NCBI GenBank assembly: GCA_001776935.1
Contig: MFDN01000014.1
Location: 65,464 to 129,463, forward strand
DNA length: 64,000 nt
Source: Candidatus Daviesbacteria bacterium RIFCSPLOWO2_01_FULL_39_23
Lineage (GTDB): Bacteria; Patescibacteriota; Microgenomatia; Daviesbacterales; UBA10151
Reading direction: 5' to 3'
Numbering within the stretch: position 1 is the first letter of the stretch; each line of letters starts with the position of its first letter. Under the pieces are notes generated by a model. That model was not told the origin of the DNA. It saw only the letters and a list, made by a program, of their open reading frames with translations, and made no database searches. The translations under genes and the position numbers were made by a program. Below, one piece after another: positions 34,010 through 56,555 of this stretch.

Positions 34010-34042
34010 CGCAAAAAGCGCGCAAGTAATCGCGCAACCTAT
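34010..34042 (-). terminator. Rho-independent terminator of fic (33-nt repeat copy 1)
   Basis: On minus strand GCGCGATTACTTGCGCGC + UUUUU immediately after the fic stop codon. Confidence 0.6.
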
Positions 34043-35115: not shown

Positions 35116-35148
35116 CGCAAAAAGCGCGCAAGAAATCGCGCAACCTAC
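35116..35148 (-). terminator. Rho-independent terminator of the TerC-like gene (33-nt repeat copy 2)
   Basis: Same sequence as 34010-34042 with one mismatch (cgcaaaaagcgcgcaag[a/t]aatcgcgcaaccta). Confidence 0.6.
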
Positions 35149-36053
35149 ACCACAACTTTTCTTGATTTTAGGAAAAAGTATCCCACAATCAAAGCTGTTG
35201 CTATTGGGGAAAGCCAGGTGGGGATATGCAAGCCGAAACTATCCATAAGCATGATGGTGCCTAAAATTAAAATAGAATACATGGCGCCGTTTTTTAGGAA
35301 AACATATTTTTTAATTCTTTCAATATTGCCAAGCGTCAATTCCCTGACCACAAATGCTCCGATCCCATTACCCAATAAAATCAACGGTACAGAAAGGGTA
35401 AAGGCAAAGGCCCCAATTACACCGTCTATGGAAAATGTGGCATCAATCACCTCAAGGTACAAAATTTTGCTAAAGTCACTTTTGGTGGAAGAAAACAGTT
35501 TCTCCTCTGCTTTCTTGGCGTTTTCCTTAAAACCGTGGGTGATAAAAAACGCTGTTGACCCGACAACCGCCCCGAAAGCCATCATCGGATTAATTTTTAG
35601 CGCAAACCAAACTATTACTGCAAGGATTACGGAGACTACCGCATAAAACCAAACGCCCTGCGAATAGAAAAACTTTTCTCCACGAAGACCAAACTGTTTC
35701 GGCTCCAGGAATAACCAGTGAAAAAAGAGAAATATTAAAAAAATGCCCCCGCCGGATAATAAAATAGGCGCAGAAGCCTCTATGGCCGCAATTACAGCCG
35801 GGTCAGAGCTTAAAGCCGCGGTGAATGCACCTATCGGTCCAAGCGAAGGATTTGTTGCCCAAACAATTGCCCACGGAAGCAAACCCCGAAGCAAGAAAAC
35901 CGCAATTAAAAGGCCCCAAAGCAAAAACCACTTACGGGCTTTTTGCGCCATGGTGGATAAAACTTCCGCATTGATAATTGCATTATCAATGGAAGATATC
36001 GTCTCAAATAAAATAAGCCCTGAAACTACCAGTACAATTGATAAAATATCCAT
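35145..36053 (-). CDS. TerC/DUF475-family integral membrane protein
   Basis: N-terminal ETISSIDNAIINA (SIDNA motif of TerC/YkoY-type proteins), 7-8 TM helices. Confidence 0.5.
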   Translation of the reverse strand: MDILSIVLVVSGLILFETISSIDNAIINAEVLSTMAQKARKWFLLWGLLIAVFLLRGLLPWAIVWATNPSLGPIGAFTAALSSDPAVIAAIEASAPILLSGGGIFLIFLFFHWLFLEPKQFGLRGEKFFYSQGVWFYAVVSVILAVIVWFALKINPMMAFGAVVGSTAFFITHGFKENAKKAEEKLFSSTKSDFSKILYLEVIDATFSIDGVIGAFAFTLSVPLILLGNGIGAFVVRELTLGNIERIKKYVFLKNGAMYSILILGTIMLMDSFGLHIPTWLSPIATALIVGYFFLKSRKVVV

Positions 36054-38809: not shown

Positions 38810-39439
38810 TTAAATTTTCCCTTTATACAAGCCACTATTTTTAGTTTGGCTGCCTGTTATATTCCCATCTTTATCAAATTCAAAGATATGGATTTCGCCG
38901 AAATTTAATTCAAGCTTTGAGATATCCTCATCTGAGATATTTTTTAAATACTTTATTAAAGCCCTTAAGCTGTTGCCTGATGAAACTATCAAGACATTTT
39001 TTCCTGATTTTAAATCTTCCAATATTTTTTCCCGAAAAAAGGGGATAACCCGCCCGTATACCTGTTTTAATGATTCGCCTCCGGGAATAAGTTTATCCCA
39101 CTTGCGCCTGATGCTGTTAAACTCCTCCGGACCGACTTCTTTTTCCACTTCCCATTTGTTTTTGCCTGTATAAATTCCATAATCACGCTCATTTAATGCA
39201 GGATCTTTTATAAGGGGAATGGTTAAGCTTAATTCCTTTGCTATCTCATCAAAGGTCTGCGTCACCCTGTCCAAAACAGAAGTATAGGCAGCATCTATTT
39301 TTATACCCTGCAAAGCCACAGCAGCCTCTTTTGCCTGTTTTCTGCCTTCCTCATTTAAAGGAATATTTGTGAGACCATGCCACCTGCCGTTAACATTCCA
39401 GTCTGTTACTCCGTGTCTTACTAAAATTAAAAATGCCAT
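38810..39439 (-). CDS. gpmA: 2,3-bisphosphoglycerate-dependent phosphoglycerate mutase
   Basis: LILVRHGVTDWN (catalytic His in RHG), SGNSLRALIKYL block characteristic of dPGM. Confidence 0.8.
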   Translation of the reverse strand: MAFLILVRHGVTDWNVNGRWHGLTNIPLNEEGRKQAKEAAVALQGIKIDAAYTSVLDRVTQTFDEIAKELSLTIPLIKDPALNERDYGIYTGKNKWEVEKEVGPEEFNSIRRKWDKLIPGGESLKQVYGRVIPFFREKILEDLKSGKNVLIVSSGNSLRALIKYLKNISDEDISKLELNFGEIHIFEFDKDGNITGSQTKNSGLYKGKI

Positions 39440-39448
39440 ATTTTTTAT

Positions 39449-39529
39449 ATGTCATTCCGATCCGCCAGCTGGCGGAGAGGAATCTCTCAACTTGTTTGAG
39501 ATACATTCACTTACGTATCAGGATGACAT
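39449..39529. repeat. MITE-like GC-rich palindromic element abutting the eno stop codon
   Basis: atgtcattccgatccgccagctggcggagagg...ttcacttacg...atcaggatgacat; terminal inverted repeats atgtcat / atgacat; shares ccgccRgctggcgga with 2205-2283 and ttcacttc + termini with 14600-14676. Confidence 0.55.
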
Positions 39530-40704
39530 TAAAAGTTTCTTTCTATCTCTATCAGCCTATTATACTTCGCCAGCCTGACTTCCTGAGTCGGCGCTCCGCT
39601 TTTTAAACCATCTGCCTCCACACCATATGCCAGATCTGCAATAAAACTATCCATAGTTTCGCCTGACCTGTGGGAGATTATCACTTTCCAATTATAACTT
39701 TGCGCAAGCTTGATTGCCTCCAAAGTCTCTGTTACAGATCCAATCTGATTGGGCTTTATTATCACACCTGTTGCGGCTTTTTCTTTCTGAGCCTTATTTA
39801 TAAGATCCGGATTTGTCACGGTTAAATCATCTGCAATTATCCAAATCTTTTCTCCTAAATTTGCGACTATTTTAATAAAGCCGTCTTTATCATCTTCCGA
39901 AAAAGGATCTTCAATGGACAATAGGGGGTAGGAAGTAGCGAGTAGGTTGTAGTAAGACAATAAATCGTCACTGCTTTTAATTTTCCCCCTAAGATTATAT
40001 ATTCTGTTTTCAAAAAATGTAGAGGCAGCCACATCCAAAGCCAAACTGACTTCCGGACCGGTTGCGTTGCGGTTTAGAACCTGCAAACCCACCCTCGGAT
40101 CATCGCTTTTTATAGTTAATGCCCCTTCATCGCCAAGCCTAACCTCCCCAAAGTTTTTTTCAATATCTTCCTGCAGCTTTTCAAAACAATTTTTTGCATA
40201 CTCCAGGCCTTTGGCAGGGGAGGGGAATTTGGTTACTAAAATATACTCCTGAAAAGGCAGGCTGTCCTTGGCATGCAATCCTCCTCCTATTAAATTAAAG
40301 TAAAGATAGGGAAATTTCCGGGGGGTTTTACCCAGTATTTTTGATATTAATTGAAAGCACTGTAAATTCTCAGATTTTGCCAATAGCTTTGTGAAGGCAA
40401 TTGATAAAACTAAAATTAAATTTCCGCCTAAATTGGATTTTTCTTTTGTGCCGTCTGTGCTTATTAAGAAGCCATCAAACTCCCAAACTGTTGGAAAATC
40501 TTTATTTAAGATCTGGTTTTTGATAGTTTCAAATTTAGAAAGCACAAGGCTTGGCTCAAGGGTTGTAGTTTCAAATTTTCCTTTGCTTTTGCCGGCAGGC
40601 ACAGATGCAGATGCCTCAAAATCCCCGGATCTTAAAACAGCTTCCAGTGTATCCTTGTTTCTGGAATCTTTTACTATTCTGATGTTTATATCTGAAATTT
40701 TCAT
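39529..40704 (-). CDS. eno: Enolase (short, divergent)
   Basis: N-terminal DSRNKDTLEAVL...ASVPAGKSKGKFE; C-terminal IIADDLTVTNP, KPNQIGSVTETLEAIKLA, ISHRSGETMDSFIADLA, AKYNRLIEIE all align to canonical enolase blocks. Confidence 0.85.
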   Translation of the reverse strand: MKISDINIRIVKDSRNKDTLEAVLRSGDFEASASVPAGKSKGKFETTTLEPSLVLSKFETIKNQILNKDFPTVWEFDGFLISTDGTKEKSNLGGNLILVLSIAFTKLLAKSENLQCFQLISKILGKTPRKFPYLYFNLIGGGLHAKDSLPFQEYILVTKFPSPAKGLEYAKNCFEKLQEDIEKNFGEVRLGDEGALTIKSDDPRVGLQVLNRNATGPEVSLALDVAASTFFENRIYNLRGKIKSSDDLLSYYNLLATSYPLLSIEDPFSEDDKDGFIKIVANLGEKIWIIADDLTVTNPDLINKAQKEKAATGVIIKPNQIGSVTETLEAIKLAQSYNWKVIISHRSGETMDSFIADLAYGVEADGLKSGAPTQEVRLAKYNRLIEIERNF

Positions 40705-43061
40705 TCTTGTGAACGGATCGCCTGCATGGTGGAAATCACCGAGTCCGGATTAAGGGACATGCTTTCAATGCCAATGCTTACTAAAAATTTTGCAAAATCC
40801 GGATAATCAGAAGGCGCCTGCCCGCAGATTCCGATATATTTGCCTCTTTTTTTGCAGACTTTAACAACTTCACTTATCAGCTGTTTAACAGATTCATCAT
40901 TTTCATTGGCAATGCCTTTTACTTTTTCGTTTCCGTCCCGGTCAATCCCAAGCGCCAGCTGAGTTAAGTCATTTGACCCGATACTCATGCCGTCAAAAAT
41001 ATCTAAAAACTTATCAGCAAGAATTACATTAGCAGGAATTTCACACATCACATAGACTTTTAACCCATCATCTCTTTTAAGTCCATTTTGCTCCATAATC
41101 TTAATAACTTTTTCTCCCTCCTGCGGAGTCCTGCAAAAAGGAATCATAACAACTAAATTCTTAAGCCCCATTTCATTTCTCACATTTTTAACCGCCTCAA
41201 CTTCCAGTTTAAAAGCCGGCAAAAAAGCTTCATTGTAGTAGCGGGACGCGCCTCTCCAGCCGATCATCGGATTTTCCTCTGACGGTTCAAACAAATAACC
41301 CCCAAGCAAAGAGCGGTACTCATTAGTTTTAAAATCCGAAAACCGCAAAATCACCGGTTTTGGATAAAAAGCTGCAGCGATTTTTGCAATGCCGTAGGAT
41401 AACTTATCAATATAAAACTTCGTTTTGTTTTTATACCCTAGTGTTTTACGGTCCACAGCTTCTTTTACCGCTTTTGGAAGTTTGTCATAATTTATTAAAG
41501 ACAGCGGATGAATCCCGATATCAGAGGCGATTATAAATTCTTCCCTTGCAAGACCAACTCCACTGTTTGGCAGGAATGATTTTTCAAAGGCGGTTTCCGG
41601 TGTGGCAATGTTCATCATTATGTGAGTTTTCACCGGTCTGATATTGCGGATATCATGTTCTGTTACTTTAAATTTCAATTGTCCTTTAAAAACTATCCCT
41701 TCTTCGCCTGTACAATCCACAGTTATCATTTCGCCTTTTTTAATTTTAGATGTTGCATTTTTGCAGCCGACAATTGCGGGGATTCCCAGCTCACGGGAAA
41801 CTATGGCTGCATGAGAGGTTCTTCCGCCCTGATCAGTTACAATGGCAGAGGCAATTTTCATAATCGGTTCCCAATCAGGGTCTGTCATTTTGGTTATTAA
41901 CACCTCACCGGCTCCAAAGGTGGAAATATCTTTCGGATCAATGATAATTTTTGCTTTGCCGGTTGAGATTTTATTTCCAACTGATGCGCCTTTTACTATT
42001 TCCTGGCCGTTTTCCAGCCTGACATACTCTTTTATGACCGAGAAATTTCTTTCTGCATGAATGGTTTCCGGTCTAGCCTGCACAATGTACAATTTTCCGT
42101 CCAGTCCGTCTTTGGCCCACTCCGTATCCATCGGCGTCCACTTTTTACTAACCTTACTGTAATGCTCCTCAATTTGCATTCCCCAGCCGGCAAGTTCTTT
42201 GATTTCCTTATCAGAAAGCGTAAATGTTTGTTTTTCCTGTTTTGAGGTTTCAACAATACGGGTTGGCTTATCCTCGCCATAAATCATTTTCTCATCTTTC
42301 ACACCCAGCTTTTTTTCTATAATGGCAGAAGTTTGTTTAAAAACTAAAAATTCATCAGGCGTCACTTTTCCCTGCACTATCATCTCCCCCAAGCCCCATG
42401 AAGAATTTATCAAAACCAAGTCTTTAAAACCTGATTCCGTATCCAAAGTAAACATTACTCCGGAGCATGCCAAATCAGAACGGATCATTTTTTGCACACC
42501 CACAGAAAGATATACCTTAAGATGATCAAAACCTTTATCCTCCCTATATGAAATTGCCCGGGCAGTAAACAGAGAAGCCATCGCCTTTCTAATTGCTGCT
42601 AAGATATTATCCACACCCCTGATGTTTAAATAAGTCTCATGTTCGCCGGCAAAAGACGCTCCGGGTAAGTCTTCTGCTGTTGCAGAAGACCGCACCGCAA
42701 AACTTACACCAGTACCGTATCTTTTTTCGTAAATTTTATGAGCAGCTTTAATTTCTTCTTCAAGTTCTTTGGGGAAAGGAGTTTGTAAAAACTTATTTAT
42801 TATATTTTTGGAGATTTGAGCCAACCCTTCCAGGTGTCCTTTTACAAATTTGTCTATCTGCTCCTTAATATAACTTTCTAAACCTGTTTCTGATAAGAAA
42901 AATCTATACGCTGTAGCAGTTACCGCATAACCTGAGGGGACCAGAATTCCACTACCTGCTAAAGATCCTATCATCTCACCCAAAGAAGCATTTTTGCCTC
43001 CAACTTCGGTAACATCTTCTATGGAAATCTGCTCAAAGGGGATTATAAACTTACCGGCCAT
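40701..43061 (-). CDS. ppsA: Phosphoenolpyruvate synthase (PEP-utilising enzyme)
   Basis: N-terminal VGGKNASLGEM, phospho-His domain ITKMTDPDWEPIM...TDQGGRTSHAAIVSRELGIPAIVGC, C-terminal PEP/pyruvate TIM-barrel; ~785 aa from ATG at 43061. Confidence 0.85.
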   Translation of the reverse strand: MAGKFIIPFEQISIEDVTEVGGKNASLGEMIGSLAGSGILVPSGYAVTATAYRFFLSETGLESYIKEQIDKFVKGHLEGLAQISKNIINKFLQTPFPKELEEEIKAAHKIYEKRYGTGVSFAVRSSATAEDLPGASFAGEHETYLNIRGVDNILAAIRKAMASLFTARAISYREDKGFDHLKVYLSVGVQKMIRSDLACSGVMFTLDTESGFKDLVLINSSWGLGEMIVQGKVTPDEFLVFKQTSAIIEKKLGVKDEKMIYGEDKPTRIVETSKQEKQTFTLSDKEIKELAGWGMQIEEHYSKVSKKWTPMDTEWAKDGLDGKLYIVQARPETIHAERNFSVIKEYVRLENGQEIVKGASVGNKISTGKAKIIIDPKDISTFGAGEVLITKMTDPDWEPIMKIASAIVTDQGGRTSHAAIVSRELGIPAIVGCKNATSKIKKGEMITVDCTGEEGIVFKGQLKFKVTEHDIRNIRPVKTHIMMNIATPETAFEKSFLPNSGVGLAREEFIIASDIGIHPLSLINYDKLPKAVKEAVDRKTLGYKNKTKFYIDKLSYGIAKIAAAFYPKPVILRFSDFKTNEYRSLLGGYLFEPSEENPMIGWRGASRYYNEAFLPAFKLEVEAVKNVRNEMGLKNLVVMIPFCRTPQEGEKVIKIMEQNGLKRDDGLKVYVMCEIPANVILADKFLDIFDGMSIGSNDLTQLALGIDRDGNEKVKGIANENDESVKQLISEVVKVCKKRGKYIGICGQAPSDYPDFAKFLVSIGIESMSLNPDSVISTMQAIRSQE

Positions 43062-43092
43062 TAATTTATATTCTACTAAACAGCTGTGAAAA

Positions 43093-46000
43093 TCAATAAG
43101 ACATCTTTTCCTCTGCAAATAGTTCAGCCTGTCTTAATATATTTTCTGCAGCATAAGGGCGCAAACCTTCCGGATACCCGTACTGCCTTATGGTTCTTCT
43201 TATTATTAACCATAGATTGGATTTGGCGCTTACTTTAATTGGCCAATTTTCTACCGCATTGGCTTTTATGCGCGCTGTAATCAGTTTAGCCAATTCCTGA
43301 ATTTTTTCTACTCCCAGCTGTTCTCTTGCGTTCTTATTGATGGCAAGAATATCAAAATAAGCAAGCTCTTCTTCTGATAAACCTAAATTACTATATTTAA
43401 ACTGCTTACCGATTTTCTCTTTTGAATTTATTAAATCCGCTATGATTTTATCCACTTTCAAATTATACTCCCTGTGTTTTTGCAGGCCCTTTTTAAGGGT
43501 ATCTGACAAATCCGTTTCCGCTCTTTTTACTTTGATAAATTCTTCAATAATCTCGTTCTCAATTGAACGGTTCTGAAGCTTTTCTATCAGACTTTGTATT
43601 TTCCTTGCCAAAAACTCCGGAGATTCATCCTTCTTTTCTATTAAAGTAGCAAGCTCTTCAATAATTTCGTTGGTGATAAGATTATGCTCTTTGAGTTTTG
43701 GAATAATATCTTCATATATTTGGGACAATTCTTCATTTGATTTTTCATCAAATATAAACTTTAGAACACTCACTCCTTCTGACCCGCGAAGCTCTTTGGC
43801 AAACGAAGCCAACGAATCAACAGCCGGACCGGGCGCCAAAATCTTATCATTATATTTCCTTATAATATCCTCAAGAATTTCTGCCAATTTTTTGCCGCGG
43901 GTGAGATTTTTCTTAGCTTTTGCGCGCAGTGCATCTATAAGAATTTTTTTTAATAACTCAAAAGCGGTTTTTTCCCGCACCATACCTTTTGCTTCTCCTA
44001 AAAACTCGTCCGAGAGAAGTATTATGTCGGTACCTCTTATCCTGACATCTGTGTGTCCCCCATGCTGCGTTGTTTCCACTTCTCCTCCTATAGACTTATT
44101 TTGATACCATTTTAGTTCTATTTGCCGGAAATCTAACCCGGCAGCCTCTGTTGCATCCAAAACATCAGGAACCTCTTCATCTGCTATTTGCCTAATAACA
44201 GTTTCTTCTCCAATTTCCAAAATATCACTATCCTTGGGCTCAAATTTCAGCATTCTCATCTTAAGGGCCTGGAAAAATCTTAATTTACCTTTTATATCTA
44301 AGGCTTTAGGATGCGGGTAAGACATTACAAACCAGCCGGATAAAAGGTCAACTTCTTTTATAAACCTATTCTTGCCGTCTTTAAGGCCAAAAATATGCTC
44401 CTGCGCATCCAGCAGAATGTTAAGCTTTTGTGATTCTGCGGAAAAATACGGCTGGTAATCAAACGGGTCAAACATTGAATGGACAATTTGAAATTTTTCT
44501 ATCATTTTTAAAACTGCTTCTCCCAAGTCATCTACCGGATCTCCTTCGCCACCGCTTGCAATATATTCCTGTTGAGCTTTCTTGAATTGGGATAAAAGAC
44601 CAATATAATCAACAATTAACCCGCCTGGTTTATCTTTAAAAATCTGATTAACCCGTGCTGTGATTTGCATAAGTTTATGTCCGTGCATAGGTTTATCAAT
44701 ATATAAAGTATGCAGGGCAAGAGCATCAAAACAAGTCAGCCAAACATCGCAAACAATCACTATTTTTAAACTGTCGCCCGGATCATTAAGACGCTCACCC
44801 AATTTCTTTCTTTCCTCCAGGGAGTAAATTGAACTTAAAACAGCCTTAATTGCACCCTTATTTAAATCTTCATCATGCCAGGATGGACGAAGTTTGATAA
44901 TTTCATCATAAAGTCTCAAAGCAAGCGGCGGATGCAAAGCAACTATCATGCCTTTGCCTTCAAAAAAGCGGGTGCGGTTTTCAAAATGAGCCACAATATC
45001 AGCCGCCGCCTGCCGGACTCTGTCAGTATTTCCCAGGGCTTTCTCAAGCTGTTCTAAAGCGTTTTTAACCTTTTGAGAAGGAGCATTTTGCCCCTCCATC
45101 AATGATTCAACATTTTCATCATATTTAAGCAACTCTTCCTGTTTTAGGTGAAATTTCGGAAGTCCTGAGTGATAATAGACCCTGACGGTAGTACCATCTT
45201 CAACCGATCTTGCAACATCATAAATATCGATATAGCTCCCAAAAACTTTTAAGGTTAAATAGTCTTCTTTTTCAGCCGGTGTACCTGTAAATCCAATAAA
45301 ACAGGCATTCGGCAAAGCAGGGCGGATAAATTTATCAAAAACCTGTGCGCTTTTTTTTATTTCTTCCGCAATAACAATAATATTATTCCTTACCGATAAA
45401 ATGCCGTGATTTTTTTCAGAAAAATTATCTATCGGGCTAAAAATAATGCCGCCGCCTAAAGCAGCAAGAAGTCCTGTTAAATGCGCCTGGTTTTGCGCAA
45501 CTTTAACTTCCTGATGTAGGAGTTGATTACAGGAAGTTAAAGTTTCAAGCAGATGGAAATCCGGATCACCCGGATCAGGAATAACCAGGATTGTGGGCTT
45601 ATTTAAGAATAGGGAAACTTTACCGATATAAAACACTATGGAATAAGATTTACCGCTGCCCTGGGTATGCCATACTAAACCTGCTTTTTTGTTATCCATA
45701 AACCGACGGTTGGAAGAAAACTGCTCACTTGTTGACTCAACTGCTTTATTAACGCCGTTATACTGATGATAAAAAGCTACTTTTTTAGTTGATTTTTCAA
45801 AGACAATAAAGTGCTTGATTAAGTCCAGTAAAACTTCTCTATTTAGCATCTCGCAGATCATTGTCTCAAGCGAAGAAACAGACAAATTTTGACGCCTGTA
45901 TCCATGTCTGGATTTCCAAGCTAAGAATCTCGAGTAAGTAGATGTTATCGTTCCTGCTCTTGCATCTTTCCCGTCAGATATAACAAGAAGACTATTATAG

Positions 46001-46551
46001 TAAAAAATTGAGGGTATAGTCTTTTTGAAATCATGCATTCTGCTAAAGGTACACAAAAAAGCCGCCTCGCCTCCCGGACTGCCAAGTTCTATCACAATAA
46101 GAGGCAGCCCGTTAATAAAGAGAATAATGTTTACTCTTTTCTTATTATGTTTCTCAAATACGCTAAACTGGTTAGTAACAATAAATTCGTTATTTTCAGG
46201 ATTGCCAAAATCCACAATTTGCAAATTTCCAAAGCCAGGCATCTCAATACCGTTTGTTAGAATCTTATGAAAGGCTTCATTAATCCCTTCTGTCTGCAGA
46301 TTAAAAATTTCTTTAGCGGCTTTAACTTTCACTTCCTCAGGAACGCTTGGGTTTAAACGGTCTATTGCTATATGAAGTCTGTTTTTAAGTATTACTTCTT
46401 CTAAGTTTTCCCTTTCAAACTCAGCATCATCAGGCGACAGGTAACTAAATCCCTGAATTTTTAAAAGTTCCACAAGGTTTTTTTCTTCTTCTGATTCAAA
46501 AATTGCCGGCATAAAATATTGGCAGTTTTCAGGGTAGCCCAAATAGATCAA
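43093..46551 (-). CDS. hsdR: Solitary type I restriction enzyme HsdR-like helicase-nuclease homologue (apparently degenerate catalytic motifs)
   Basis: HsdR N-terminal block (FSYLSPDDAEFERENLEEVILKNRLHIAIDRLNP), nuclease block NIILFINGLPLIVIELGS, SF2 motif I WHTQGSGKSYS, motif III GFTGTP, C-terminal DUF3387-like region with YFDILA and QYGYPEG. No hsdM/hsdS within the window. Confidence 0.65.
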   Translation of the reverse strand: MIYLGYPENCQYFMPAIFESEEEKNLVELLKIQGFSYLSPDDAEFERENLEEVILKNRLHIAIDRLNPSVPEEVKVKAAKEIFNLQTEGINEAFHKILTNGIEMPGFGNLQIVDFGNPENNEFIVTNQFSVFEKHNKKRVNIILFINGLPLIVIELGSPGGEAAFLCTFSRMHDFKKTIPSIFYYNSLLVISDGKDARAGTITSTYSRFLAWKSRHGYRRQNLSVSSLETMICEMLNREVLLDLIKHFIVFEKSTKKVAFYHQYNGVNKAVESTSEQFSSNRRFMDNKKAGLVWHTQGSGKSYSIVFYIGKVSLFLNKPTILVIPDPGDPDFHLLETLTSCNQLLHQEVKVAQNQAHLTGLLAALGGGIIFSPIDNFSEKNHGILSVRNNIIVIAEEIKKSAQVFDKFIRPALPNACFIGFTGTPAEKEDYLTLKVFGSYIDIYDVARSVEDGTTVRVYYHSGLPKFHLKQEELLKYDENVESLMEGQNAPSQKVKNALEQLEKALGNTDRVRQAAADIVAHFENRTRFFEGKGMIVALHPPLALRLYDEIIKLRPSWHDEDLNKGAIKAVLSSIYSLEERKKLGERLNDPGDSLKIVIVCDVWLTCFDALALHTLYIDKPMHGHKLMQITARVNQIFKDKPGGLIVDYIGLLSQFKKAQQEYIASGGEGDPVDDLGEAVLKMIEKFQIVHSMFDPFDYQPYFSAESQKLNILLDAQEHIFGLKDGKNRFIKEVDLLSGWFVMSYPHPKALDIKGKLRFFQALKMRMLKFEPKDSDILEIGEETVIRQIADEEVPDVLDATEAAGLDFRQIELKWYQNKSIGGEVETTQHGGHTDVRIRGTDIILLSDEFLGEAKGMVREKTAFELLKKILIDALRAKAKKNLTRGKKLAEILEDIIRKYNDKILAPGPAVDSLASFAKELRGSEGVSVLKFIFDEKSNEELSQIYEDIIPKLKEHNLITNEIIEELATLIEKKDESPEFLARKIQSLIEKLQNRSIENEIIEEFIKVKRAETDLSDTLKKGLQKHREYNLKVDKIIADLINSKEKIGKQFKYSNLGLSEEELAYFDILAINKNAREQLGVEKIQELAKLITARIKANAVENWPIKVSAKSNLWLIIRRTIRQYGYPEGLRPYAAENILRQAELFAEEKMSY

Positions 46552-48032: not shown

Positions 48033-49433
48033 TTAGATAAATAACTGCTTTAGCAGCCTGTCATACAAAACATACAAACTAAATCCACCATAAAAAAGAA
48101 AGGCAAAAATCATAATGGTAATTCTAAAAAACGAAGGCTGAAGAATTTTTTCCAAACTCGTTAAATTCAACCAGAGAGTTAATCCCACATGTACAAACAT
48201 GGCAAAAGCATTTAATACAGCTGCTATCAAAAGAAGCTGCAAAGGTTCTGCAAATCCTAACAAAAGGATAGTTACCCCTCCCAGAATCTGTACCCATAAA
48301 ACAGTGTAATAAATTGCAGGGATTTTCTTCTCACTTAGCTTTGAGGGTGCGGATAAAATTAAATTCTCACTCAAAATCCGGCTGGTGGCATCCAAAACAG
48401 TCAGCTGCGTCCCGAAAAGCGTTGATCCGGCGATAAAAAGGAAAAAGATTCCGGCAAAAGGAAATATATTTTGACCAATTACCAAGGCCTCCTGCAGAAC
48501 AAAATTAATATTTGCTGCCTGTCCGGTCAAACCAAATGTGGTAACGTAAGCCAGCAGTCCCAGCAGTAAAATTGTAACCGAACCGGTCAGCCAAAAGATT
48601 ATAAAATGCTCAATATTAATGTTTTTCCACCACTGTTTAAAGTTTTGAATATTTTCATGGGTTAATTCAAACTTAGTCCCGGTTATGGAAATTTCTTCTT
48701 TTTTCCCTGTGAGAACACTTGTTATCCTGCCGGAATATTTTCCCATCCCATATCCTTTTTCTTTAATGTAAAAAGCCTGAGCCAAATTCAAATTCCCTCC
48801 TGCTCCTGCATAAGCCAAAGCTGCCAAAAAAGATGCAATGGAAATGCCTGCAGGAAGTAAATAATAATCCTTCCCAATGCCGACTGAACCCTTAATAAGA
48901 TCTACCCAGTGAGATTGTTGGGCTAAAATAACACTTAAAAGAAAAATTGCAGGAACACCTATTAAAATTAAGGTCTTTTGCAGGTTTTCCACTGTTTTAT
49001 AAAGAATCGGGCCCATGGATAATATCAAACCGATAACTACCAAAAATATAATAGCCAAATATTTTGTTTCCCCGACTCCCAAAACAGTCCCAAAAAGCTT
49101 AGCTGAGGAAGCTATTATGCCTGGCCAGACCCAGGGAATAAAAGTGGAAAGTAAAAACCAAAATGAAATCCAGCGCAGTTCCCGGGCAAGCCCGACAAAC
49201 ACGCTTTCTCCGTGAGCCAGAGCATATCTTTCTATCTCCATATTCATAAAAAACTGAAAAGTAATACCAAGAAGAGCTCCCCAGATAATTCCCATTCCAT
49301 AATTTGAAGTAAGGTAGGGCCAAAGAATGATTTCGCCGCTGCCTAAACCTAGTCCTAAAATAATAAAACTGGGGCCCAAAAGTTTCAAAAGAGGAGGACA
49401 AGGAGGTAAAATGTTGACTTTTAAAGGTCTCAA
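48033..49433 (-). CDS. Nramp-related family membrane transporter (putative)
   Basis: 11-12 TM helices; N-terminal LGPSFIILGLGLGSGEIILWPYL resembles the Nramp TM1 region but lacks DPGN. Confidence 0.35.
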   Translation of the reverse strand: MRPLKVNILPPCPPLLKLLGPSFIILGLGLGSGEIILWPYLTSNYGMGIIWGALLGITFQFFMNMEIERYALAHGESVFVGLARELRWISFWFLLSTFIPWVWPGIIASSAKLFGTVLGVGETKYLAIIFLVVIGLILSMGPILYKTVENLQKTLILIGVPAIFLLSVILAQQSHWVDLIKGSVGIGKDYYLLPAGISIASFLAALAYAGAGGNLNLAQAFYIKEKGYGMGKYSGRITSVLTGKKEEISITGTKFELTHENIQNFKQWWKNINIEHFIIFWLTGSVTILLLGLLAYVTTFGLTGQAANINFVLQEALVIGQNIFPFAGIFFLFIAGSTLFGTQLTVLDATSRILSENLILSAPSKLSEKKIPAIYYTVLWVQILGGVTILLLGFAEPLQLLLIAAVLNAFAMFVHVGLTLWLNLTSLEKILQPSFFRITIMIFAFLFYGGFSLYVLYDRLLKQLFI

Positions 49434-50442: not shown

Positions 50443-50964
50443 TTACTTCCTGTATAGAATTTTTTCAAATATTTTACTCACAATAAAACCTGCAAAACCG
50501 GAAAATACCGCTACTGCAAAAGAAACTATTAAGATAACCTCAGGAAATAAAGGAACAAATTTATAATGCAGGCTTTGCCGGCCTTCCATAAAATGTGTAT
50601 ATAAAACAGGAACCTTAAACAAACTTGTAATAATTTCTACTGTTGCTAACCAAACCAACACGTAAATAATACTTACATGAAGACTTTGAAATAAGCTCTT
50701 CTTAATATTCATTCCATTAATTAAGAAAGCAAGAAATGATACCGGAATTAATGAAAATATGAGTAAATAAATATCAAAGCCATATTTTTTTTGGCATATT
50801 TCAAAAATATACACACATGATTGACAAGCACCACATCTTCCACCATTAAAATTATCATTAAATGCAGACTGAATTTTTTCTGTGCCCAATAAAAAATTTA
50901 TATACAGCAATAATATAAACAGAAGAACACTAAATGCTATCTGATATTTGCCTATTTTTTTCAT
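50443..50964 (-). CDS. Hypothetical membrane protein
   Basis: 173 aa, 4 TM helices, Cys-rich loop GGRCGACQSC. Confidence 0.4.
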   Translation of the reverse strand: MKKIGKYQIAFSVLLFILLLYINFLLGTEKIQSAFNDNFNGGRCGACQSCVYIFEICQKKYGFDIYLLIFSLIPVSFLAFLINGMNIKKSLFQSLHVSIIYVLVWLATVEIITSLFKVPVLYTHFMEGRQSLHYKFVPLFPEVILIVSFAVAVFSGFAGFIVSKIFEKILYRK

Positions 50965-51308
50965 CAGCTTTTATTGGTTAAAGGAAATAATTCTCTAACG
51001 GTCTTTAAAATCTTGTTTCTGATCTTAAGGGTTAACCGGCCGACGGTTTTTTTAATAATAGTTGTATCTGCCGTAAAGACTTTATCCGGCCTTACAAAAC
51101 TTTCAACCGGTAATTTACCTTTAGCAAAATCTTTTGATTTAATACAAATTGCTATTTTGCTTGTATAAGGCTTTGAGGTAATTTGACACAGGATAATATT
51201 TCCGAATTCAACATTAGCCAAAACCAAAGCAGGGCGGATCTTTTGACCCTTTAAATTGGAAAAAGGGAATGCAACTAAAACAATACTGCCTACTGTAAAC
51301 TTGCCCAT
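50964..51308 (-). CDS. mazF: MazF/PemK-family mRNA interferase toxin
   Basis: GSIVLVAFPFSNLKGQKIRPALVL matches PemK/MazF N-terminal consensus (GdivlvdFpfsd.sg.K.RPalVl). Confidence 0.7.
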   Translation of the reverse strand: MGKFTVGSIVLVAFPFSNLKGQKIRPALVLANVEFGNIILCQITSKPYTSKIAICIKSKDFAKGKLPVESFVRPDKVFTADTTIIKKTVGRLTLKIRNKILKTVRELFPLTNKS

Positions 51309-51526
51309 GCTTCATCCTCTTCCGGTCGATTCCAGTCGGTTGCGAGTGTTTTTTCTGATAATAACGTGCTTGCTGTTGAGGTATTTTTTACAGGCGCTGA
51401 AACAATTCTTATCTCGCCCCTTTTTACCTGTAATTCAACCTGCTCGCCAAGACCGCTTTCGGTCAAAACAGGTTTTGGAATACGTATTCCGCGGGAATTT
51501 CCTATCGCAATAATTGTTGTTATCAT
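51290..51526 (-). CDS. mazE: MazE/AbrB-type antitoxin
   Basis: IGNSRGIRIPKPVL swapped-hairpin SpoVT/AbrB motif; overlaps mazF start. Confidence 0.7.
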   Translation of the reverse strand: MITTIIAIGNSRGIRIPKPVLTESGLGEQVELQVKRGEIRIVSAPVKNTSTASTLLSEKTLATDWNRPEEDEAWASLQ

Positions 51527-53765: not shown

Positions 53766-56555
53766 GTGAACATCACTAAATTTTTTTCCTTGACATTCTT
53801 AGGTCTGGCTTTTGTTACTTTTATTTTCTTCTCAAGCATTATTTCCTTGATTACCGACTGGTGGTGGTACCAAGAAGTAGGATTTACCGAAATCTTTATA
53901 AAATCCCTAAGCACTAAAATCATTGTAGGTTTAGTAGCAGGAATTACCGCTGCCATTTTTCTTCTTACGAACTTATCTCTTGCCATCCGTTCGAAAATAC
54001 CCTGGATGGCAGCCATTCCTGAAGTTATCATCGGTGCCAATCAACCAATTAGCTTAAATAGTAGAATAATTGGGAAGCTCGGCATTATTCTAAGCTGTAT
54101 CATTGCCATCTTTATTGGTCTTATCGCCGCAAGCAGTTGGCATGACGTCTTAAAGTTTATATCAGGTGTACCGTTTGGGCAAAAAGACCCGATATTTGCT
54201 GCTGATGTATCTTTTTACGTGTTTTCCCTGCCTGTTTTTTCTTTGGGCCTTGGTCTTATAAAAACCGTTATCCTGATATCGCTTATCGGTTGCGGCGTAA
54301 TTTACATTTTACGAGGCAGCCTCAATTTATCAAGCCTTTTTCCTAAAATTGACCTCTCTAAATTGACCGGAAAACCTGAAAGTTTGATTATCAGACCTGC
54401 GAGAGATTCGAGTACTGATCCTAAAGCCAGACTGCATATCGGCATTCTACTATCTCTCTTTTTGGCAACAATTGCCACAAGCACATATCTTTCTCTCTAT
54501 AATTTGCTTACCAGTCAGAGCGGTCCGGTGTTTGGTGCGGCCTTCACCGATGCCAATGTTATGATACCAATTCTTCGTGTATCTGTTTTTGTTTACGGCC
54601 TGGCTGTGATTTTAGCGCTATTTTACGGGATTAGCGGGAGAATCGCGCCTCTTTTTGTAGCAATTTTTTTGACTGTAATCGTCGGGTTTACCTCTTTAAT
54701 TATCCCTTCTATTTTCCAGAAACTGGTGGTTGCGCCCAATGAGCTTACCAAAGAAACACCGTTTATCAAACACAACATTGAATTAACCCGCAAGGCTTAT
54801 GATTTGGATAAGGTAGAAGAGCGGGAAATAGAAGCCAGTAAACCGGTTACAGCTTCCGATATTGCAACTAATAATCTCACCATCAAAAATGTCAGACTGT
54901 GGGACAAGGCGCCGCTTTTGTCTACTTTTTCGCAAATTCAGGAGATTAGAACTTACTACGAGTTTGCCTCTGTTGATAATGACCGTTATACAATTAACGA
55001 AGAATTGCGCCAGATTATGCTTTCTCCCAGAGAGCTGGATTCGGATAGCCTGCCCAACAAAAACTGGATTAATGAACGGTTAACCTTTACTCATGGCTAT
55101 GGGGTAACCGGCGGACCGGTAAATCAGGTTACTCCTGAAGGATTGCCTGTACTATTCGTCAAAGACTTACCTCCAAAATCCGAAGTCAAAGAACTTGAAG
55201 TCACAAGGCCGGAAGTTTACTACGGGGAAATCCCTAACGAGTATGTAATTGTCAAAACCAAATCTAAGGAGTTTGATTATCCCAAAGGCGAAGAAAATGT
55301 CTATACCACATATGACGGGAAAGGCGGAGTAGAAATCAACTCTCCTTTGCGCCGGTTCCTGTATGCTTTGCGATTTGGCTCCCTCAAATTATTTTTATCA
55401 AGCGATGTTACAGCTGAGAGCCGTATCCTTTATTACCGCAATATAAAGGAGAGAGTTGCTAAAATTGCTCCGTTTCTTACACTTGACCGCGACCCGTATC
55501 TGGTTATCGCTGAAGGCAAACTGTATTGGATCCTTGATGCCTATACATCAACCGACCGTTATCCCTATTCCCAACAGCTGCCATTAAATGGAGGTAAGGT
55601 AAATTATATTAGAAATTCCGTTAAAGCAATGGTAGATGCTTACGACGGAACAGTCAAGCTTTATCAAAGCGATGCTGATGATCCGATTATCAAAACCTAT
55701 GCCAAAATTTTTCCCAAAACTTTTCTTCCGCTTTCTGAAATGCCCAAAAGCTTGACTCCCCACCTCCGTTATCCCGAAGATATTTTTACTTTGCAAACTG
55801 CAATCTACACCACCTACCATATGGATGACCCGCAGATTTTCTACAACAAAGAGGACCAGTGGGAAATCCCTGCTATTGCTTCAGGCGGCGAGACGCAAGC
55901 CGGCGGCAGAGTATCGGCAATGGATCCGCGGCACATGATTATGAAGCTCCCGGGTGAGAAAAAAGAGGAGTATATTCTTATGCTGCCCTTTACCCCGCGG
56001 GCAAAAGACAATCTGTCTGCCTGGATGGTAGCCAGAAATGACGGAGAACAGTATGGTAAACTGGTTGTCTACCGTTTCCCCAAAGATAAACTGGTGTTTG
56101 GTCCCAAACAGGTTATAGGCAGAATTAATCAGGACGCAGAAGTCAGTCGGCAGATCTCTTTATGGGATCAGCGCGGGTCGCAGGTTATCCAGGGGCCGCT
56201 GCTGGTTATTCCTATTGAGGAGTCTTTAGTATATGTCCGTCCGCTCTATCTTAAGGCAGAGGCAGGGAAAATTCCGGAACTCAAACGGGTCATCGTCGCA
56301 TACGAGAATAAAATTGCCATGGAAGAGACACTGGAAGCAGGCCTGGCTAAAATCTTCGGCACTGCCGAAGGCCAAACCAAACCATCCGGAGAATCACCGG
56401 TTAGAGCAGCGCCTGCCGACCCGACCAAAGAAAACCTTCTTCAGCAGGCAAACCAGGCATATCAGTCTGCCATCAATGCGCAACGGGAGGGAGACTGGGG
56501 CAGGTACGGAGAGGAGATAAAAAAGCTGGGTGAAATATTAAGTAAACTACGCTGA
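53766..56555 (+). CDS. UPF0182-family large membrane protein
   Basis: N-terminal 7-TM block beginning LITDWWWYQEVGFTEIF (UPF0182 hallmark WWxxE/Q-VG-Y/F) followed by ~650-aa extracytoplasmic domain; 929 aa. Confidence 0.7.
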   Translation: MNITKFFSLTFLGLAFVTFIFFSSIISLITDWWWYQEVGFTEIFIKSLSTKIIVGLVAGITAAIFLLTNLSLAIRSKIPWMAAIPEVIIGANQPISLNSRIIGKLGIILSCIIAIFIGLIAASSWHDVLKFISGVPFGQKDPIFAADVSFYVFSLPVFSLGLGLIKTVILISLIGCGVIYILRGSLNLSSLFPKIDLSKLTGKPESLIIRPARDSSTDPKARLHIGILLSLFLATIATSTYLSLYNLLTSQSGPVFGAAFTDANVMIPILRVSVFVYGLAVILALFYGISGRIAPLFVAIFLTVIVGFTSLIIPSIFQKLVVAPNELTKETPFIKHNIELTRKAYDLDKVEEREIEASKPVTASDIATNNLTIKNVRLWDKAPLLSTFSQIQEIRTYYEFASVDNDRYTINEELRQIMLSPRELDSDSLPNKNWINERLTFTHGYGVTGGPVNQVTPEGLPVLFVKDLPPKSEVKELEVTRPEVYYGEIPNEYVIVKTKSKEFDYPKGEENVYTTYDGKGGVEINSPLRRFLYALRFGSLKLFLSSDVTAESRILYYRNIKERVAKIAPFLTLDRDPYLVIAEGKLYWILDAYTSTDRYPYSQQLPLNGGKVNYIRNSVKAMVDAYDGTVKLYQSDADDPIIKTYAKIFPKTFLPLSEMPKSLTPHLRYPEDIFTLQTAIYTTYHMDDPQIFYNKEDQWEIPAIASGGETQAGGRVSAMDPRHMIMKLPGEKKEEYILMLPFTPRAKDNLSAWMVARNDGEQYGKLVVYRFPKDKLVFGPKQVIGRINQDAEVSRQISLWDQRGSQVIQGPLLVIPIEESLVYVRPLYLKAEAGKIPELKRVIVAYENKIAMEETLEAGLAKIFGTAEGQTKPSGESPVRAAPADPTKENLLQQANQAYQSAINAQREGDWGRYGEEIKKLGEILSKLR

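What the first reader, a model, noticed from the sequence alone, without database searches (positions are those of the whole stretch)
43093..46551. Orphan HsdR-like protein with substitutions at predicted catalytic positions
Full-length HsdR architecture: N-terminal PD-(D/E)xK region, SF2 motor with GFTGTP, and a DUF3387-type C-terminus with YGYP. No HsdM or HsdS sits anywhere in the 64-kb window; the flanking genes are ppsA and small membrane proteins. Aligning from memory to the conserved HsdR blocks, the NGLPL-V-IELK nuclease block reads NGLPLIVIELGS (Lys to Gly). The expected Asp upstream reads as Asn (RVNIILF). The Walker B h4-DEAH reads IVIAEEI (Asp to Ala). A solitary, possibly catalytically dead HsdR suggests exaptation (a DNA-translocase scaffold or sensor) or an undescribed M/S-independent role.
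Basis: partly seen in the sequence, partly recalled or inferred. Interest (0 to 1): 0.55.

Follow-up and report, generated by a model that had tools for sequence, protein, structure and literature searches.

The report
Solitary, catalytically degenerate HsdR relic
A full-length relative of the cutting/motor subunit of a Type I restriction enzyme sits alone among housekeeping genes of a Daviesbacteria (CPR) genome; its nuclease and DNA-motor motifs are broken but its reading frame and fold are kept intact, so it looks like a restriction subunit kept as a non-enzyme rather than a working defence gene or a plain pseudogene.

Summary
The ORF at 43093-46551(-), probable ATG at 46512, is a genuine HsdR-family protein (TIGR00348, 421 bits; closest solved fold EcoR124I HsdR). 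Proper alignments give D141N, K157G and QxxxY changed to RxxxF in the nuclease. Motor motifs Ia, Ib, II (DEAH to EEIK: Asp to Glu and His to Lys, not Asp to Ala), IV, V and VI are also degenerate. Walker A, the Q-motif and motif III are intact. It violates 16 of 66 columns that are at least 95% conserved in 102 diverse canonical HsdRs (canonical median 1, maximum 7).

No hsdM, hsdS or remnant lies in the 64 kb, whereas canonical CPR relatives sit in hsdM-hsdS-x-hsdR islands. It is not a neutral pseudogene: drift this deep would create about 12-30 stop codons, all 13 or more indels are in frame, substitutions are conservative, and codon usage matches the host. An old tandem duplication added about 125 aa to the C-terminal helical domain.

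The protein is known from one Daviesbacteria population only. The next relatives are at most 49% identical by BLASTP. Its function is unknown. My best reading is a nuclease-dead, non-translocating, probably still nucleotide-binding pseudoenzyme. Whether hsdMS exists elsewhere in the genome could not be tested.

The parts
43093..46512 (-). HsdR-like gene, 1139 codons from the probable ATG start plus stop. The mechanical ORF extends to the TTG at 46551.
   Evidence: The family N-terminus aligns to M14. Database entries of 1139 aa (P0122, P0123) use this start.
45778..46512 (-). N-terminal PD-(D/E)xK nuclease domain (HSDR_N), with the fold kept
   Evidence: Pfam PF04313, 1.1e-31. AF2 pLDDT is mostly above 90. 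65% of family-invariant columns are retained.
46027..46137 (-). Degenerate nuclease active site: KRPD to KRVN (D141N), IELK to IELG (K157G), QLQNY to RMHDF (Q171R, Y175F). E155 is kept.
   Evidence: EcoR124I D151A and K167A give no cleavage.
45142..45777 (-). RecA-like motor lobe 1
   Evidence: PF18766 SWI2_SNF2, 4.1e-49. Foldseek to EcoR124I HsdR.
45643..45666 (-). Walker A / motif I, TQGSGKSY, intact
45553..45585 (-). Motif Ia degenerate: VITDRNDLDDQ to VIPDPGDPDFH (T325P, R327P, L330P, Q333H)
45346..45375 (-). Motif II degenerate: VIADEAHRSQ to VIAEEIKKSA (D396E, H399K, R400K, Q402A), followed by a 17-aa loop deletion
45277..45294 (-). Motif III, GFTGTP, intact
44557..45141 (-). RecA-like motor lobe 2. 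It includes a degenerate motif IV region (MSRRIA to LHPPLA) and an 11-aa deletion.
44641..44757 (-). Motifs V and VI degenerate: VRDMWLTGFDVPC to VCDVWLTCFDALA; QAIARVNR to QITARVNQ (R636Q)
43096..44556 (-). Helical and C-terminal region (T1RH-like_C, formerly DUF3387), including YGYP. This is the least conserved part.
   Evidence: PF11867, 8.5e-66, in 3 stretches. Retention of invariant columns is 0.52.
44041..44136 (-). Insertion 1 (32 aa), predicted beta-hairpin, with no family match
43390..43776 (-). Insertion 2 (about 125 aa), made of diverged tandem copies of the canonical ~40-aa helical segment that precedes it
   Evidence: c1 vs c2 z=6.5; c2 vs c3 z=4.2; family consensus vs c2 z=5.5, vs c3 z=4.7. 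No DNA repeat is left. All-helical and low pLDDT.
38810..43061 (-). Context only: ppsA-eno-gpm (His_Phos_1) run, co-directional, starting 32 nt downstream of the HsdR-like stop. Possibly co-transcribed.
   Evidence: No terminator-like site lies in the gap, and a promoter-like site sits at 43090-43063. The ppsA-eno pair is conserved in CPR without HsdR.

Best explanation
This is an HsdR-derived pseudoenzyme. Its ancestor was the R subunit of a HindI/T1RH-like Type I restriction system, and it has lost its hsdM/hsdS neighbours.

Shown by alignment:
- The nuclease active site is lost (D to N, K to G, QxxxY gone).
- The motor residues that grip and pump DNA are lost or changed (motifs Ia, Ib, IV, V; motif II DEAH to EEIK; motif VI arginine to Gln).

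Shown indirectly:
- It has been kept as an intact, fold-preserving, host-adapted gene in one Daviesbacteria lineage.

Inferred:
- It cannot restrict DNA.
- The Q-motif, Walker A, motif III, the motif II glutamate and the first motif VI arginine survive, so it most likely still binds ATP.
- It probably works as a non-cleaving, non-translocating nucleotide-binding scaffold or switch.
- Its interaction surface is probably the remodelled C-terminal helical domain, which carries a tandem-duplicated helical hairpin and a beta-hairpin insertion.

Its cellular role and partner are unknown.
For: - Family membership and fold.
- Catalytic substitutions in three independent alignments.
- Excess of violations: 198 of 547 columns invariant in 17 close relatives are broken, against 0-13 for any relative left out. 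16 of 66 columns at least 95% conserved in 102 diverse HsdRs are broken, against a median of 1 and a maximum of 7. About 90% of representatives at 27-45% identity keep every motif.
- EcoR124I D151A and K167A abolish cleavage.
- No hsdM, hsdS or remnants in 64 kb. Canonical CPR relatives are in hsdM-hsdS-x-hsdR islands.
- Selection on frame and fold. In neutral simulations only 0.3% stay stop-free at 10% divergence and 0 of 300 at 20% or more. There are 13 or more indel events and all are in frame. Substitutions at invariant sites have mean BLOSUM62 +0.03, against -0.55 +/- 0.08 expected. Codon usage is the closest to the window average, and the gene GC of 0.378 is near the window's 0.385.
- The sequence is identical in at least 5 independent assemblies.
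- An old in-frame tandem expansion of the C-terminal helices.
Against: - The protein is confined to one population, so no dN/dS or orthologue conservation test was possible.
- Retention of invariant columns is fairly even across domains (0.52-0.69). The C-terminal region is the least conserved, so no obviously protected functional surface stands out.
- There is no expression evidence.
- ATP binding is inferred from motifs only.
- The high AF2 confidence is driven by the family alignment. It does not prove that this particular sequence folds.
- Other degenerate HsdRs in the database are also singletons, which fits slow decay as well as repeated exaptation.
Confidence: 0.6

Rival explanations
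1. Functionless relic on its way to loss. The protein does nothing. The frame stays open only because of weak indirect constraints, such as avoiding toxic truncated or misfolded products, or keeping translation and transcription running into the downstream ppsA-eno-gpm genes.
For: Single-population distribution with no orthologues. Partner genes are gone. Catalytic and non-catalytic invariant positions are lost at broadly similar rates, and the C-terminus is most diverged. Other solitary degenerate HsdRs are singletons. Only 32 nt and no terminator-like site separate it from ppsA.
Against: The number of conserved-site violations implies at least 20% unconstrained divergence, at which 0 of 300 simulations stayed open. 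Substitutions are significantly conservative. An in-frame ~125-aa domain expansion was retained. A promoter-like site directly upstream of ppsA suggests that ppsA need not depend on read-through.
Confidence: 0.25
2. Regulatory decoy for a Type I system encoded elsewhere in the genome. The dead R subunit still docks on an M2S1 methyltransferase core. It competes with, or replaces, an active R subunit, so the system is biased toward modification (restriction alleviation).
For: Nuclease-dead EcoR124I HsdR mutants D151A and K167A are trans-dominant negative in r+ hosts (Table 1 of PMC2602864). Functional hsdR can be unlinked from hsdMS in S. aureus. The T1RH-like_C domain and the YGYP motif are still recognisable.
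Against: No hsdM or hsdS in 64 kb. The helical/C-terminal region is the most diverged part and carries two insertions. From my own knowledge, not tested here, this region mediates methyltransferase docking in EcoR124I. Genome-wide presence of hsdMS is unknown.
Confidence: 0.1
3. Still a working restriction subunit with unorthodox motifs. It serves a distant hsdMS pair, with catalytic residues supplied from migrated positions.
For: Walker A, the Q-motif, motif III, E155 and E397 are kept. D396E is conservative. The orphan but functional hsdR of S. aureus is a precedent.
Against: K157G leaves no compensating basic residue in the ELGSPGGEAAF segment, and D141N is also present. Alanine mutants at these positions abolish cleavage. 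Prolines replace conserved T/R/L in motif Ia and RR in motif IV, and basic residues are lost in Ib, V and VI. More divergent canonical HsdRs keep all of these.
Confidence: 0.05

Closest known systems
HindI/T1RH-like HsdR subunits of Type I restriction-modification systems (TIGR00348; PADLOC REase_I PDLC03040), e.g. the canonical CPR proteins P0002 and P0007
   Same: Same four-domain architecture and order, 50-53% identity over aligned columns in the A1 alignment (47-49% by BLASTP), and the same N- and C-terminal landmarks (MxxIFES..., FTGTP, KDKPGGLIVDYIG, YGYP).
   Different: The canonical proteins keep every catalytic motif and sit in hsdM-hsdS-(281 aa)-hsdR operons inside integrase- or recombinase-flanked islands. 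The window protein has lost the nuclease D/K/QxxxY residues and motor motifs Ia, Ib, II, IV, V and VI. It has 10 loop deletions and three insertions totalling about 160 aa, and it stands alone among housekeeping genes.
EcoR124I HsdR (PDB 2W00, 4BEB, 6H2J, 7BST)
   Same: Closest solved structure (Foldseek E = 4e-29 over about 920 columns; phmmer 2e-21). It gives residue-level equivalence of D151, E165, K167, Q179, Y183, GSGKT and DECH.
   Different: 17% identity. EcoR124I is an active nuclease and translocase. The window protein carries, naturally and together, substitutions at D151 and K167, the two residues whose alanine mutants kill EcoR124I cleavage, plus motor-motif losses.
Orphan hsdR of Staphylococcus aureus (Sau1 system)
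   Same: An hsdR gene located away from any hsdM/hsdS (PMC4447248).
   Different: The S. aureus gene is described there as part of active Type I systems, working with hsdMS pairs encoded elsewhere. The window protein has degenerate catalytic motifs, and no hsdMS is known for its genome.
Other degenerate HsdR-family representatives found here (P0167, P0201, P0248, P0260 solitary; P0137, P0144, P0156, P0162, P0193 in hsdMS operons)
   Same: Same family, with loss of nuclease motifs, motor motifs or both. Four are solitary in housekeeping neighbourhoods like the window protein.
   Different: Each is closer to canonical HsdR than to the window protein, so these look like independent events. Each is a singleton. 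P0248 has also lost Walker A. P0167 and P0201 are in 64-69% GC genes, where open frames persist by chance. None shares the window protein's insertions.

Membership tests
Type I restriction enzyme R subunit (HsdR) | Domain architecture: N-terminal PD-(D/E)xK domain, two RecA-like SF2 lobes, helical/C-terminal domain | tested here: met
   Pfam PF04313, PF18766, PF22679 and PF11867. TIGR00348 at 421 bits, above the 284.6 cutoff. AF2 model matched by Foldseek to EcoR124I HsdR.
Type I restriction enzyme R subunit (HsdR) | Intact PD-(D/E)xK catalytic residues (D...ExK) and QxxxY motif | tested here: not met
   D141N, K157G, Q171R and Y175F; only E155 is kept.
Type I restriction enzyme R subunit (HsdR) | Intact SF2 translocase motifs I, Ia, Ib, II (DEAH), III, IV, V, VI | tested here: not met
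   Motifs I and III are intact. Ia (TDRNDLDDQ to PDPGDPDFH), Ib (TTIQKF to SPIDNF), II (DEAH to EEIK), IV (MSRRIA to LHPPLA), V (LTGFD to LTCFD, R601C) and VI (R636Q) are degenerate.
Type I restriction enzyme R subunit (HsdR) | Genetic association with hsdM and hsdS | tested here: not met
   None within the 64 kb by Pfam or tblastn.
Type I restriction enzyme R subunit (HsdR) | ATP-dependent DNA translocation and cleavage in complex with M2S1 | not testable with these tools
   Needs biochemistry. The sequence predicts absence.
Pseudoenzyme (catalytically inactive homologue retained for another role) | Homologue of an enzyme family lacking conserved catalytic residues | tested here: met
Pseudoenzyme (catalytically inactive homologue retained for another role) | Maintained by purifying selection, expressed, and having a function | tested here: inconclusive
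   Indirect support comes from the open frame versus neutral simulation, in-frame indels, conservative substitutions and host-like codon usage. There are no orthologues for dN/dS and no expression data.
Pseudogene | Frame disruption (stops, frameshifts, truncation) or neutral substitution pattern | tested here: not met
   The frame is uninterrupted for 1139-1152 codons. The substitution pattern is non-neutral. The sequence is identical in several independent assemblies.

The most novel reading that the evidence does not exclude
Type I restriction R subunits that lose their M/S partners can be recruited as non-enzymatic, nucleotide-binding proteins. The window protein would be a domesticated 'pseudo-HsdR' with a new cellular role in a reduced CPR genome, possibly tied to the ppsA-eno-gpm operon it precedes. 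It would be built on a remodelled, tandem-duplicated C-terminal helical domain. The solitary doubly-degenerate HsdRs seen in other lineages (for example P0248 on a 1.09-Mb contig) would be independent instances of the same route.
Probability: 0.2. Interest if true: 0.65.

Novelty: new variant of a known kind. Interest (0 to 1): 0.45.

Why it matters
Genome annotation calls this protein a 'Type I restriction subunit', and defence-system counts would score it as such. It almost certainly cannot restrict DNA.

If it is truly maintained, it would be a clear bacterial example of a defence motor-nuclease turned pseudoenzyme. My literature searches here found no such case described. It sits in a CPR organism whose small genome leaves little room for useless 3.4-kb genes.

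The side observation gives a testable picture of how Type I systems decay or are repurposed. About 10% of HsdR-family 50%-identity representatives have lost nuclease motifs, motor motifs or both. The nuclease-only losers mostly stay in hsdMS operons, while the double losers are solitary.

The practical limit is that this particular protein is confined to one population and has no demonstrated function.

Tried and rejected
1. Within-lineage dN/dS. The 13 cluster members are one population differing by at most 2 aa, so it was not possible.
2. First AF2 model from 18 close sequences. pLDDT was 49 and the model was unusable. It was replaced by a 103-sequence alignment.
3. ppsA as a synteny anchor in GTDB genomes. 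The window's own genome was not returned and the best hit was 72% identical. It showed only that ppsA-eno is conserved without HsdR.
4. P0137 as a possible sister lineage (ELTS compared with ELGS). Rejected: it is 41% identical to the window protein but 51% to canonical P0002, and it sits in an hsdMS operon.
5. Pfam on the two insertions gave no family. A weak NCBIfam GatB hit (E = 0.06) was dismissed as insignificant.
6. TRF on the gene found no DNA-level repeat under insertion 2. The duplication is visible only at the protein level.
7. Literature searches for orphan, inactive or pseudoenzyme HsdR, and for Daviesbacteria RM, found no precedent.
8. Branch dN/dS against canonical relatives was not attempted, because at about 50% aa identity synonymous sites are saturated.
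9. A whole-genome search for hsdM/hsdS is not possible with the available tools.
Full report
**1. What is there.**
The ORF at 43093..46551 on the minus strand is real: 1152 codons from a TTG. The other five frames of the same stretch contain 41-128 stops. The family N-terminus (MTKIFES...) aligns to M14 (MPAIFES...), so the probable start is the ATG at 46512. Residue numbers below count from the TTG.

The protein scores as a full-length HsdR:
- PF04313 HSDR_N (1e-31), PF18766 SWI2_SNF2 (4e-49), PF22679 T1R_D3-like (3e-15, partial) and PF11867 T1RH-like_C (8.5e-66, in three pieces).
- TIGR00348 hsdR at 421 bits against a cutoff of 285.
- PADLOC REase_I at 1.8e-227.

A 103-sequence AlphaFold2 model (pLDDT 82, pTM 0.79) is confident everywhere except in two insertions. 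Its best structural matches are EcoR124I HsdR chains (E = 4e-29). The exact protein is on record from several independent 'Candidatus Daviesbacteria' MAG assemblies. These differ by at most two residues (L611/A612 versus S/T).

**2. The catalytic positions.**
Three independent alignments agree: phmmer to EcoR124I, 17 close relatives (A1) and 102 diverse canonical representatives.

| Element | Family | Window | Key changes |
|---|---|---|---|
| Nuclease PD | KRPD | KRVN | D141N (= EcoR124I D151) |
| Nuclease ExK | IELK | IELG | K157G (= K167); E155 kept |
| Nuclease QxxxY | QLQNY | RMHDF | Q171R, Y175F |
| Q-motif | YHQY | YHQY | intact |
| Walker A | GSGKS | GSGKS | intact |
| Motif Ia | TDRNDLDDQ | PDPGDPDFH | T325P, R327P, L330P, Q333H |
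| Motif Ib | TTIQKF | SPIDNF | T373P, Q375D, K376N |
| Motif II | ADEAHRSQ | AEEIKKSA | D396E, H399K, R400K, Q402A; 17-aa loop deletion follows |
| Motif III | FTGTP | FTGTP | intact |
| Motif IV region | MSRRIA | LHPPLA | two arginines replaced by prolines |
| Motif V | VRDMWLTGFDVPC | VCDVWLTCFDALA | R601C, G607C |
| Motif VI | QAIARVNR | QITARVNQ | R636Q |

Its Walker B call was one residue out of register: Asp becomes Glu and His becomes Lys, not Asp to Ala.

In EcoR124I, D151A and K167A each abolish DNA cleavage in vitro and restriction in vivo (PMC2602864).

**3. Is this more than ordinary divergence?**
Yes.
- Among 547 columns invariant in 17 canonical relatives (73-97% identical to each other), the window protein breaks 198. 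Any canonical sequence left out breaks 0-13.
- Against 102 diverse canonical HsdRs (27-53% identical to the window protein), it violates 21 of 94 columns conserved at 90% or more (canonical median 3, maximum 14). It violates 16 of 66 columns conserved at 95% or more (median 1, maximum 7).
- It does so although it is closer to the family core than most of those sequences.
- About 90% of 106 full-length representatives from an exhaustive search of 1.84 billion cluster representatives keep every motif.

**4. Solitary.**
No ORF of 150 aa or more in the window has a methyltransferase or HsdS domain. tblastn with HsdM, HsdS and the conserved 281-aa partner from two canonical CPR loci finds nothing (all E > 0.4).

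By contrast, the canonical relatives from CPR genomes (P0002, P0007) lie in hsdM-hsdS-(281 aa)-hsdR operons. Those operons sit in islands with integrases, recombinases and other defence genes.

The window gene is flanked by:
- upstream, a divergent DUF5670 mini-gene and a YibE/F membrane-protein gene;
- 32 nt downstream, a co-directional ppsA-eno-gpm run.

ppsA-eno is a conserved pair in many CPR genomes, and none of 80 such loci has anything HsdR-like. In two of them a cupin gene abuts ppsA. In the window, about 7 kb including the HsdR-like gene lies between the homologous cupin and ppsA.

Whether hsdMS exists elsewhere in the genome could not be tested. S. aureus shows that a functional hsdR can be unlinked from hsdMS (PMC4447248).

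**5. Relic or maintained?**
No protein between 49% and about 100% identity exists in 5.8 billion clusters or in the exhaustive representative search. Orthologue-based selection tests are therefore impossible. Indirect evidence nevertheless argues against neutral decay.

(a) Open frame. Random mutation of a canonical hsdR with the window's base composition yields on average 6.5 stops at 10% amino-acid divergence, with 0.3% of runs stop-free. It yields 12 stops at 20% and 30 at the observed ~48%, with 0 of 300 runs stop-free. The excess of conserved-site violations by itself implies at least ~20% unconstrained change.

(b) Indels. At least 13 indel events relative to the family are all in frame: deletions of 3, 7, 1, 14, 4, 17, 1, 11, 1 and 2 aa, and insertions of 4, 32 and ~125 aa.

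(c) Substitution pattern. Substitutions at family-invariant sites are much more conservative than mutation alone predicts. Mean BLOSUM62 is +0.03, against -0.55 +/- 0.08.

(d) Host adaptation. Codon usage is the closest of all window genes to the window average. Gene GC (0.378) is close to the window's 0.385, whereas a canonical CPR homologue is GC-richer than its flanks.

(e) Domain expansion. The ~125-aa C-terminal insertion consists of diverged tandem copies of the canonical ~40-aa helical segment that precedes it (c1 vs c2 z = 6.5; c2 vs c3 z = 4.2; family consensus vs c2 z = 5.5 and vs c3 z = 4.7). No DNA-level repeat is left. So this is an old, in-frame, retained elaboration.

Two observations count against a clearly protected function. 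Retention of invariant columns is fairly uniform (0.63-0.69 in the nuclease, motor and helical domains). It is lowest at the two catalytic cores (0.43-0.47) and in the C-terminal region (0.43-0.52).

**6. Mechanism.**
Shown: loss of the nuclease triad and of the DNA-contacting and coupling motifs. Many conserved basic residues were replaced, and prolines were introduced in motifs Ia and IV.

Inferred:
- The protein cannot cleave or translocate DNA.
- The adenine-binding Q-motif, the P-loop, motif III, the motif II glutamate and the first motif VI arginine survive, so ATP binding is probably retained.
- It may act as a nucleotide-dependent, non-catalytic scaffold or switch.
- Its novel surface would be the remodelled C-terminal helical domain.

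A decoy role on a distant M2S1 core is conceivable, since nuclease-dead EcoR124I HsdR is trans-dominant. That idea is weakened by the divergence of the C-terminal region and by the absence of any known hsdMS.

**7. Wider pattern (side finding).**
Ten of the 106 full-length representatives are also clearly degenerate, and two more (P0155, P0187) are marginal.
- In hsdM-hsdS-hsdR operons or defence islands:
  - P0144, P0162 and P0193 have lost only the nuclease.
  - P0156 has lost mainly motor motifs, and an SIR2_2 gene lies between its hsdS and hsdR.
  - P0137 has lost the nuclease lysine as well as motif II.
  - P0221 follows a PARIS-like AAA_15/DUF4276 pair.
- Solitary among housekeeping genes: P0167, P0201 and P0248, which have lost both activities, and P0260, which has lost only the nuclease.

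Each is closer to canonical HsdR than to the window protein, and each is a singleton. These therefore look like recurrent independent events. P0167 and P0201 are in 64-69% GC genes, where open frames persist by chance. P0248 (39% GC) is not.

**8. Verdict.**

The protein belongs to the HsdR family by descent and fold, but it fails the family's functional membership tests (catalytic residues, motor motifs, hsdMS linkage). It is best described as a solitary, degenerate HsdR-derived pseudoenzyme, or possibly a slowly decaying relic, that is specific to one Daviesbacteria population. That makes it a new variant of a known kind.

My literature searches found no described precedent. Interest is moderate. 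It is an unusual and clear case, and it matters for annotation and defence-system censuses. However, it is confined to one lineage and has no demonstrated function.

Noticed in passing
L005 4170-7355 (P0144); L090 4375-7275 (P0162); L091 2899-5727 (P0193): These HsdR-family proteins have completely lost the ExK nuclease motif (LLIFQP, VFFFQE, VMAYTA) but keep intact motor motifs. They still sit in hsdM-hsdS-hsdR operons. They may be Type I-like systems with a nuclease-less translocase subunit.
   Followed up: partly
L089 4073-11147; L004 1548-14282: Degenerate HsdRs are associated with other effector-like genes. In L089 an SIR2_2 gene lies between hsdS and a motor-degenerate HsdR (P0156). In L004 a 1200-aa PNP_UDP_1+HATPase_c_4 gene, a second PNP_UDP_1 gene and an AAA_15 gene lie directly downstream of P0137 (ELK to ELT, DEAH to TDAH).
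   Followed up: no
L006 746-3730 (P0167); L007 762-3962 (P0201); L008 8001-10991 (P0248); L092 8001-10967 (P0260): Four other degenerate HsdR-family proteins are solitary in housekeeping neighbourhoods. P0248 lies on a 1.09-Mb contig between an S8 peptidase gene and aroK, sigma70, ychF, RNase T and RNase H genes. Three of the four have lost both nuclease and motor motifs. All are singleton clusters.
   Followed up: partly
L001 9149-9994; L002 9159-10004; L003 3044-3889: A conserved 281-aa gene with no Pfam hit lies between hsdS and hsdR in canonical CPR Type I loci (56% identity between L001 and L002). L004 has a 338-aa gene with no Pfam hit in the same position.
   Followed up: no
window 44716-44721 (codons 611-612 of the HsdR-like ORF): The only variation among the independent MAG copies is a two-residue difference next to motif V: FDALALHT in the window, P0121 and P0122, against FDASTLHT in P0001 and P0123. 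The family has FDVPCLHT at this position.
   Followed up: partly
window 58450-63342 (-), 11035-12798 (-), 28451-29911 (+), 48033-49433 (-): Four large ORFs (1630, 587, 486 and 466 aa) have no Pfam or PADLOC match. The 466-aa one looks like a polytopic membrane protein from its sequence.
   Followed up: no
window 50964-51526 (-): A PemK/MazF-like toxin (114 aa) and a MazE/AbrB-like antitoxin (78 aa) form a pair about 4.5 kb upstream of the HsdR-like gene. A Fic-domain gene lies at 34039-35091. These are the only mobile- or defence-flavoured genes seen near the locus.
   Followed up: no
window 43063-43090 (-) and 43061: A promoter-like site (TTCACA-16 nt-TAAATT) lies in the 32-nt gap between the HsdR-like stop and the ppsA ATG, with its second hexamer ending 2 nt upstream of that ATG. 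ppsA may have its own, possibly leaderless, promoter rather than depending on read-through.
   Followed up: no
window 38810-43061 (-); L009-L088: ppsA followed by a short (391-aa) enolase is a widely conserved gene pair in CPR/Patescibacteria and DPANN-like MAGs. ppsA homologues of 54-72% identity are spread across very different phyla, which suggests horizontal spread.
   Followed up: partly
L002 19573-23192 compared with window 35145-36053 and 53766-56555: In L002 the canonical hsdMSR island sits next to UPF0182 and TerC/DUF475 genes. These are 58% and 71% identical to the window's UPF0182 and TerC genes, which lie 7-8 kb on either side of the HsdR-like gene. This may be coincidence, or a hint of a shared ancestral insertion region.
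   Followed up: no
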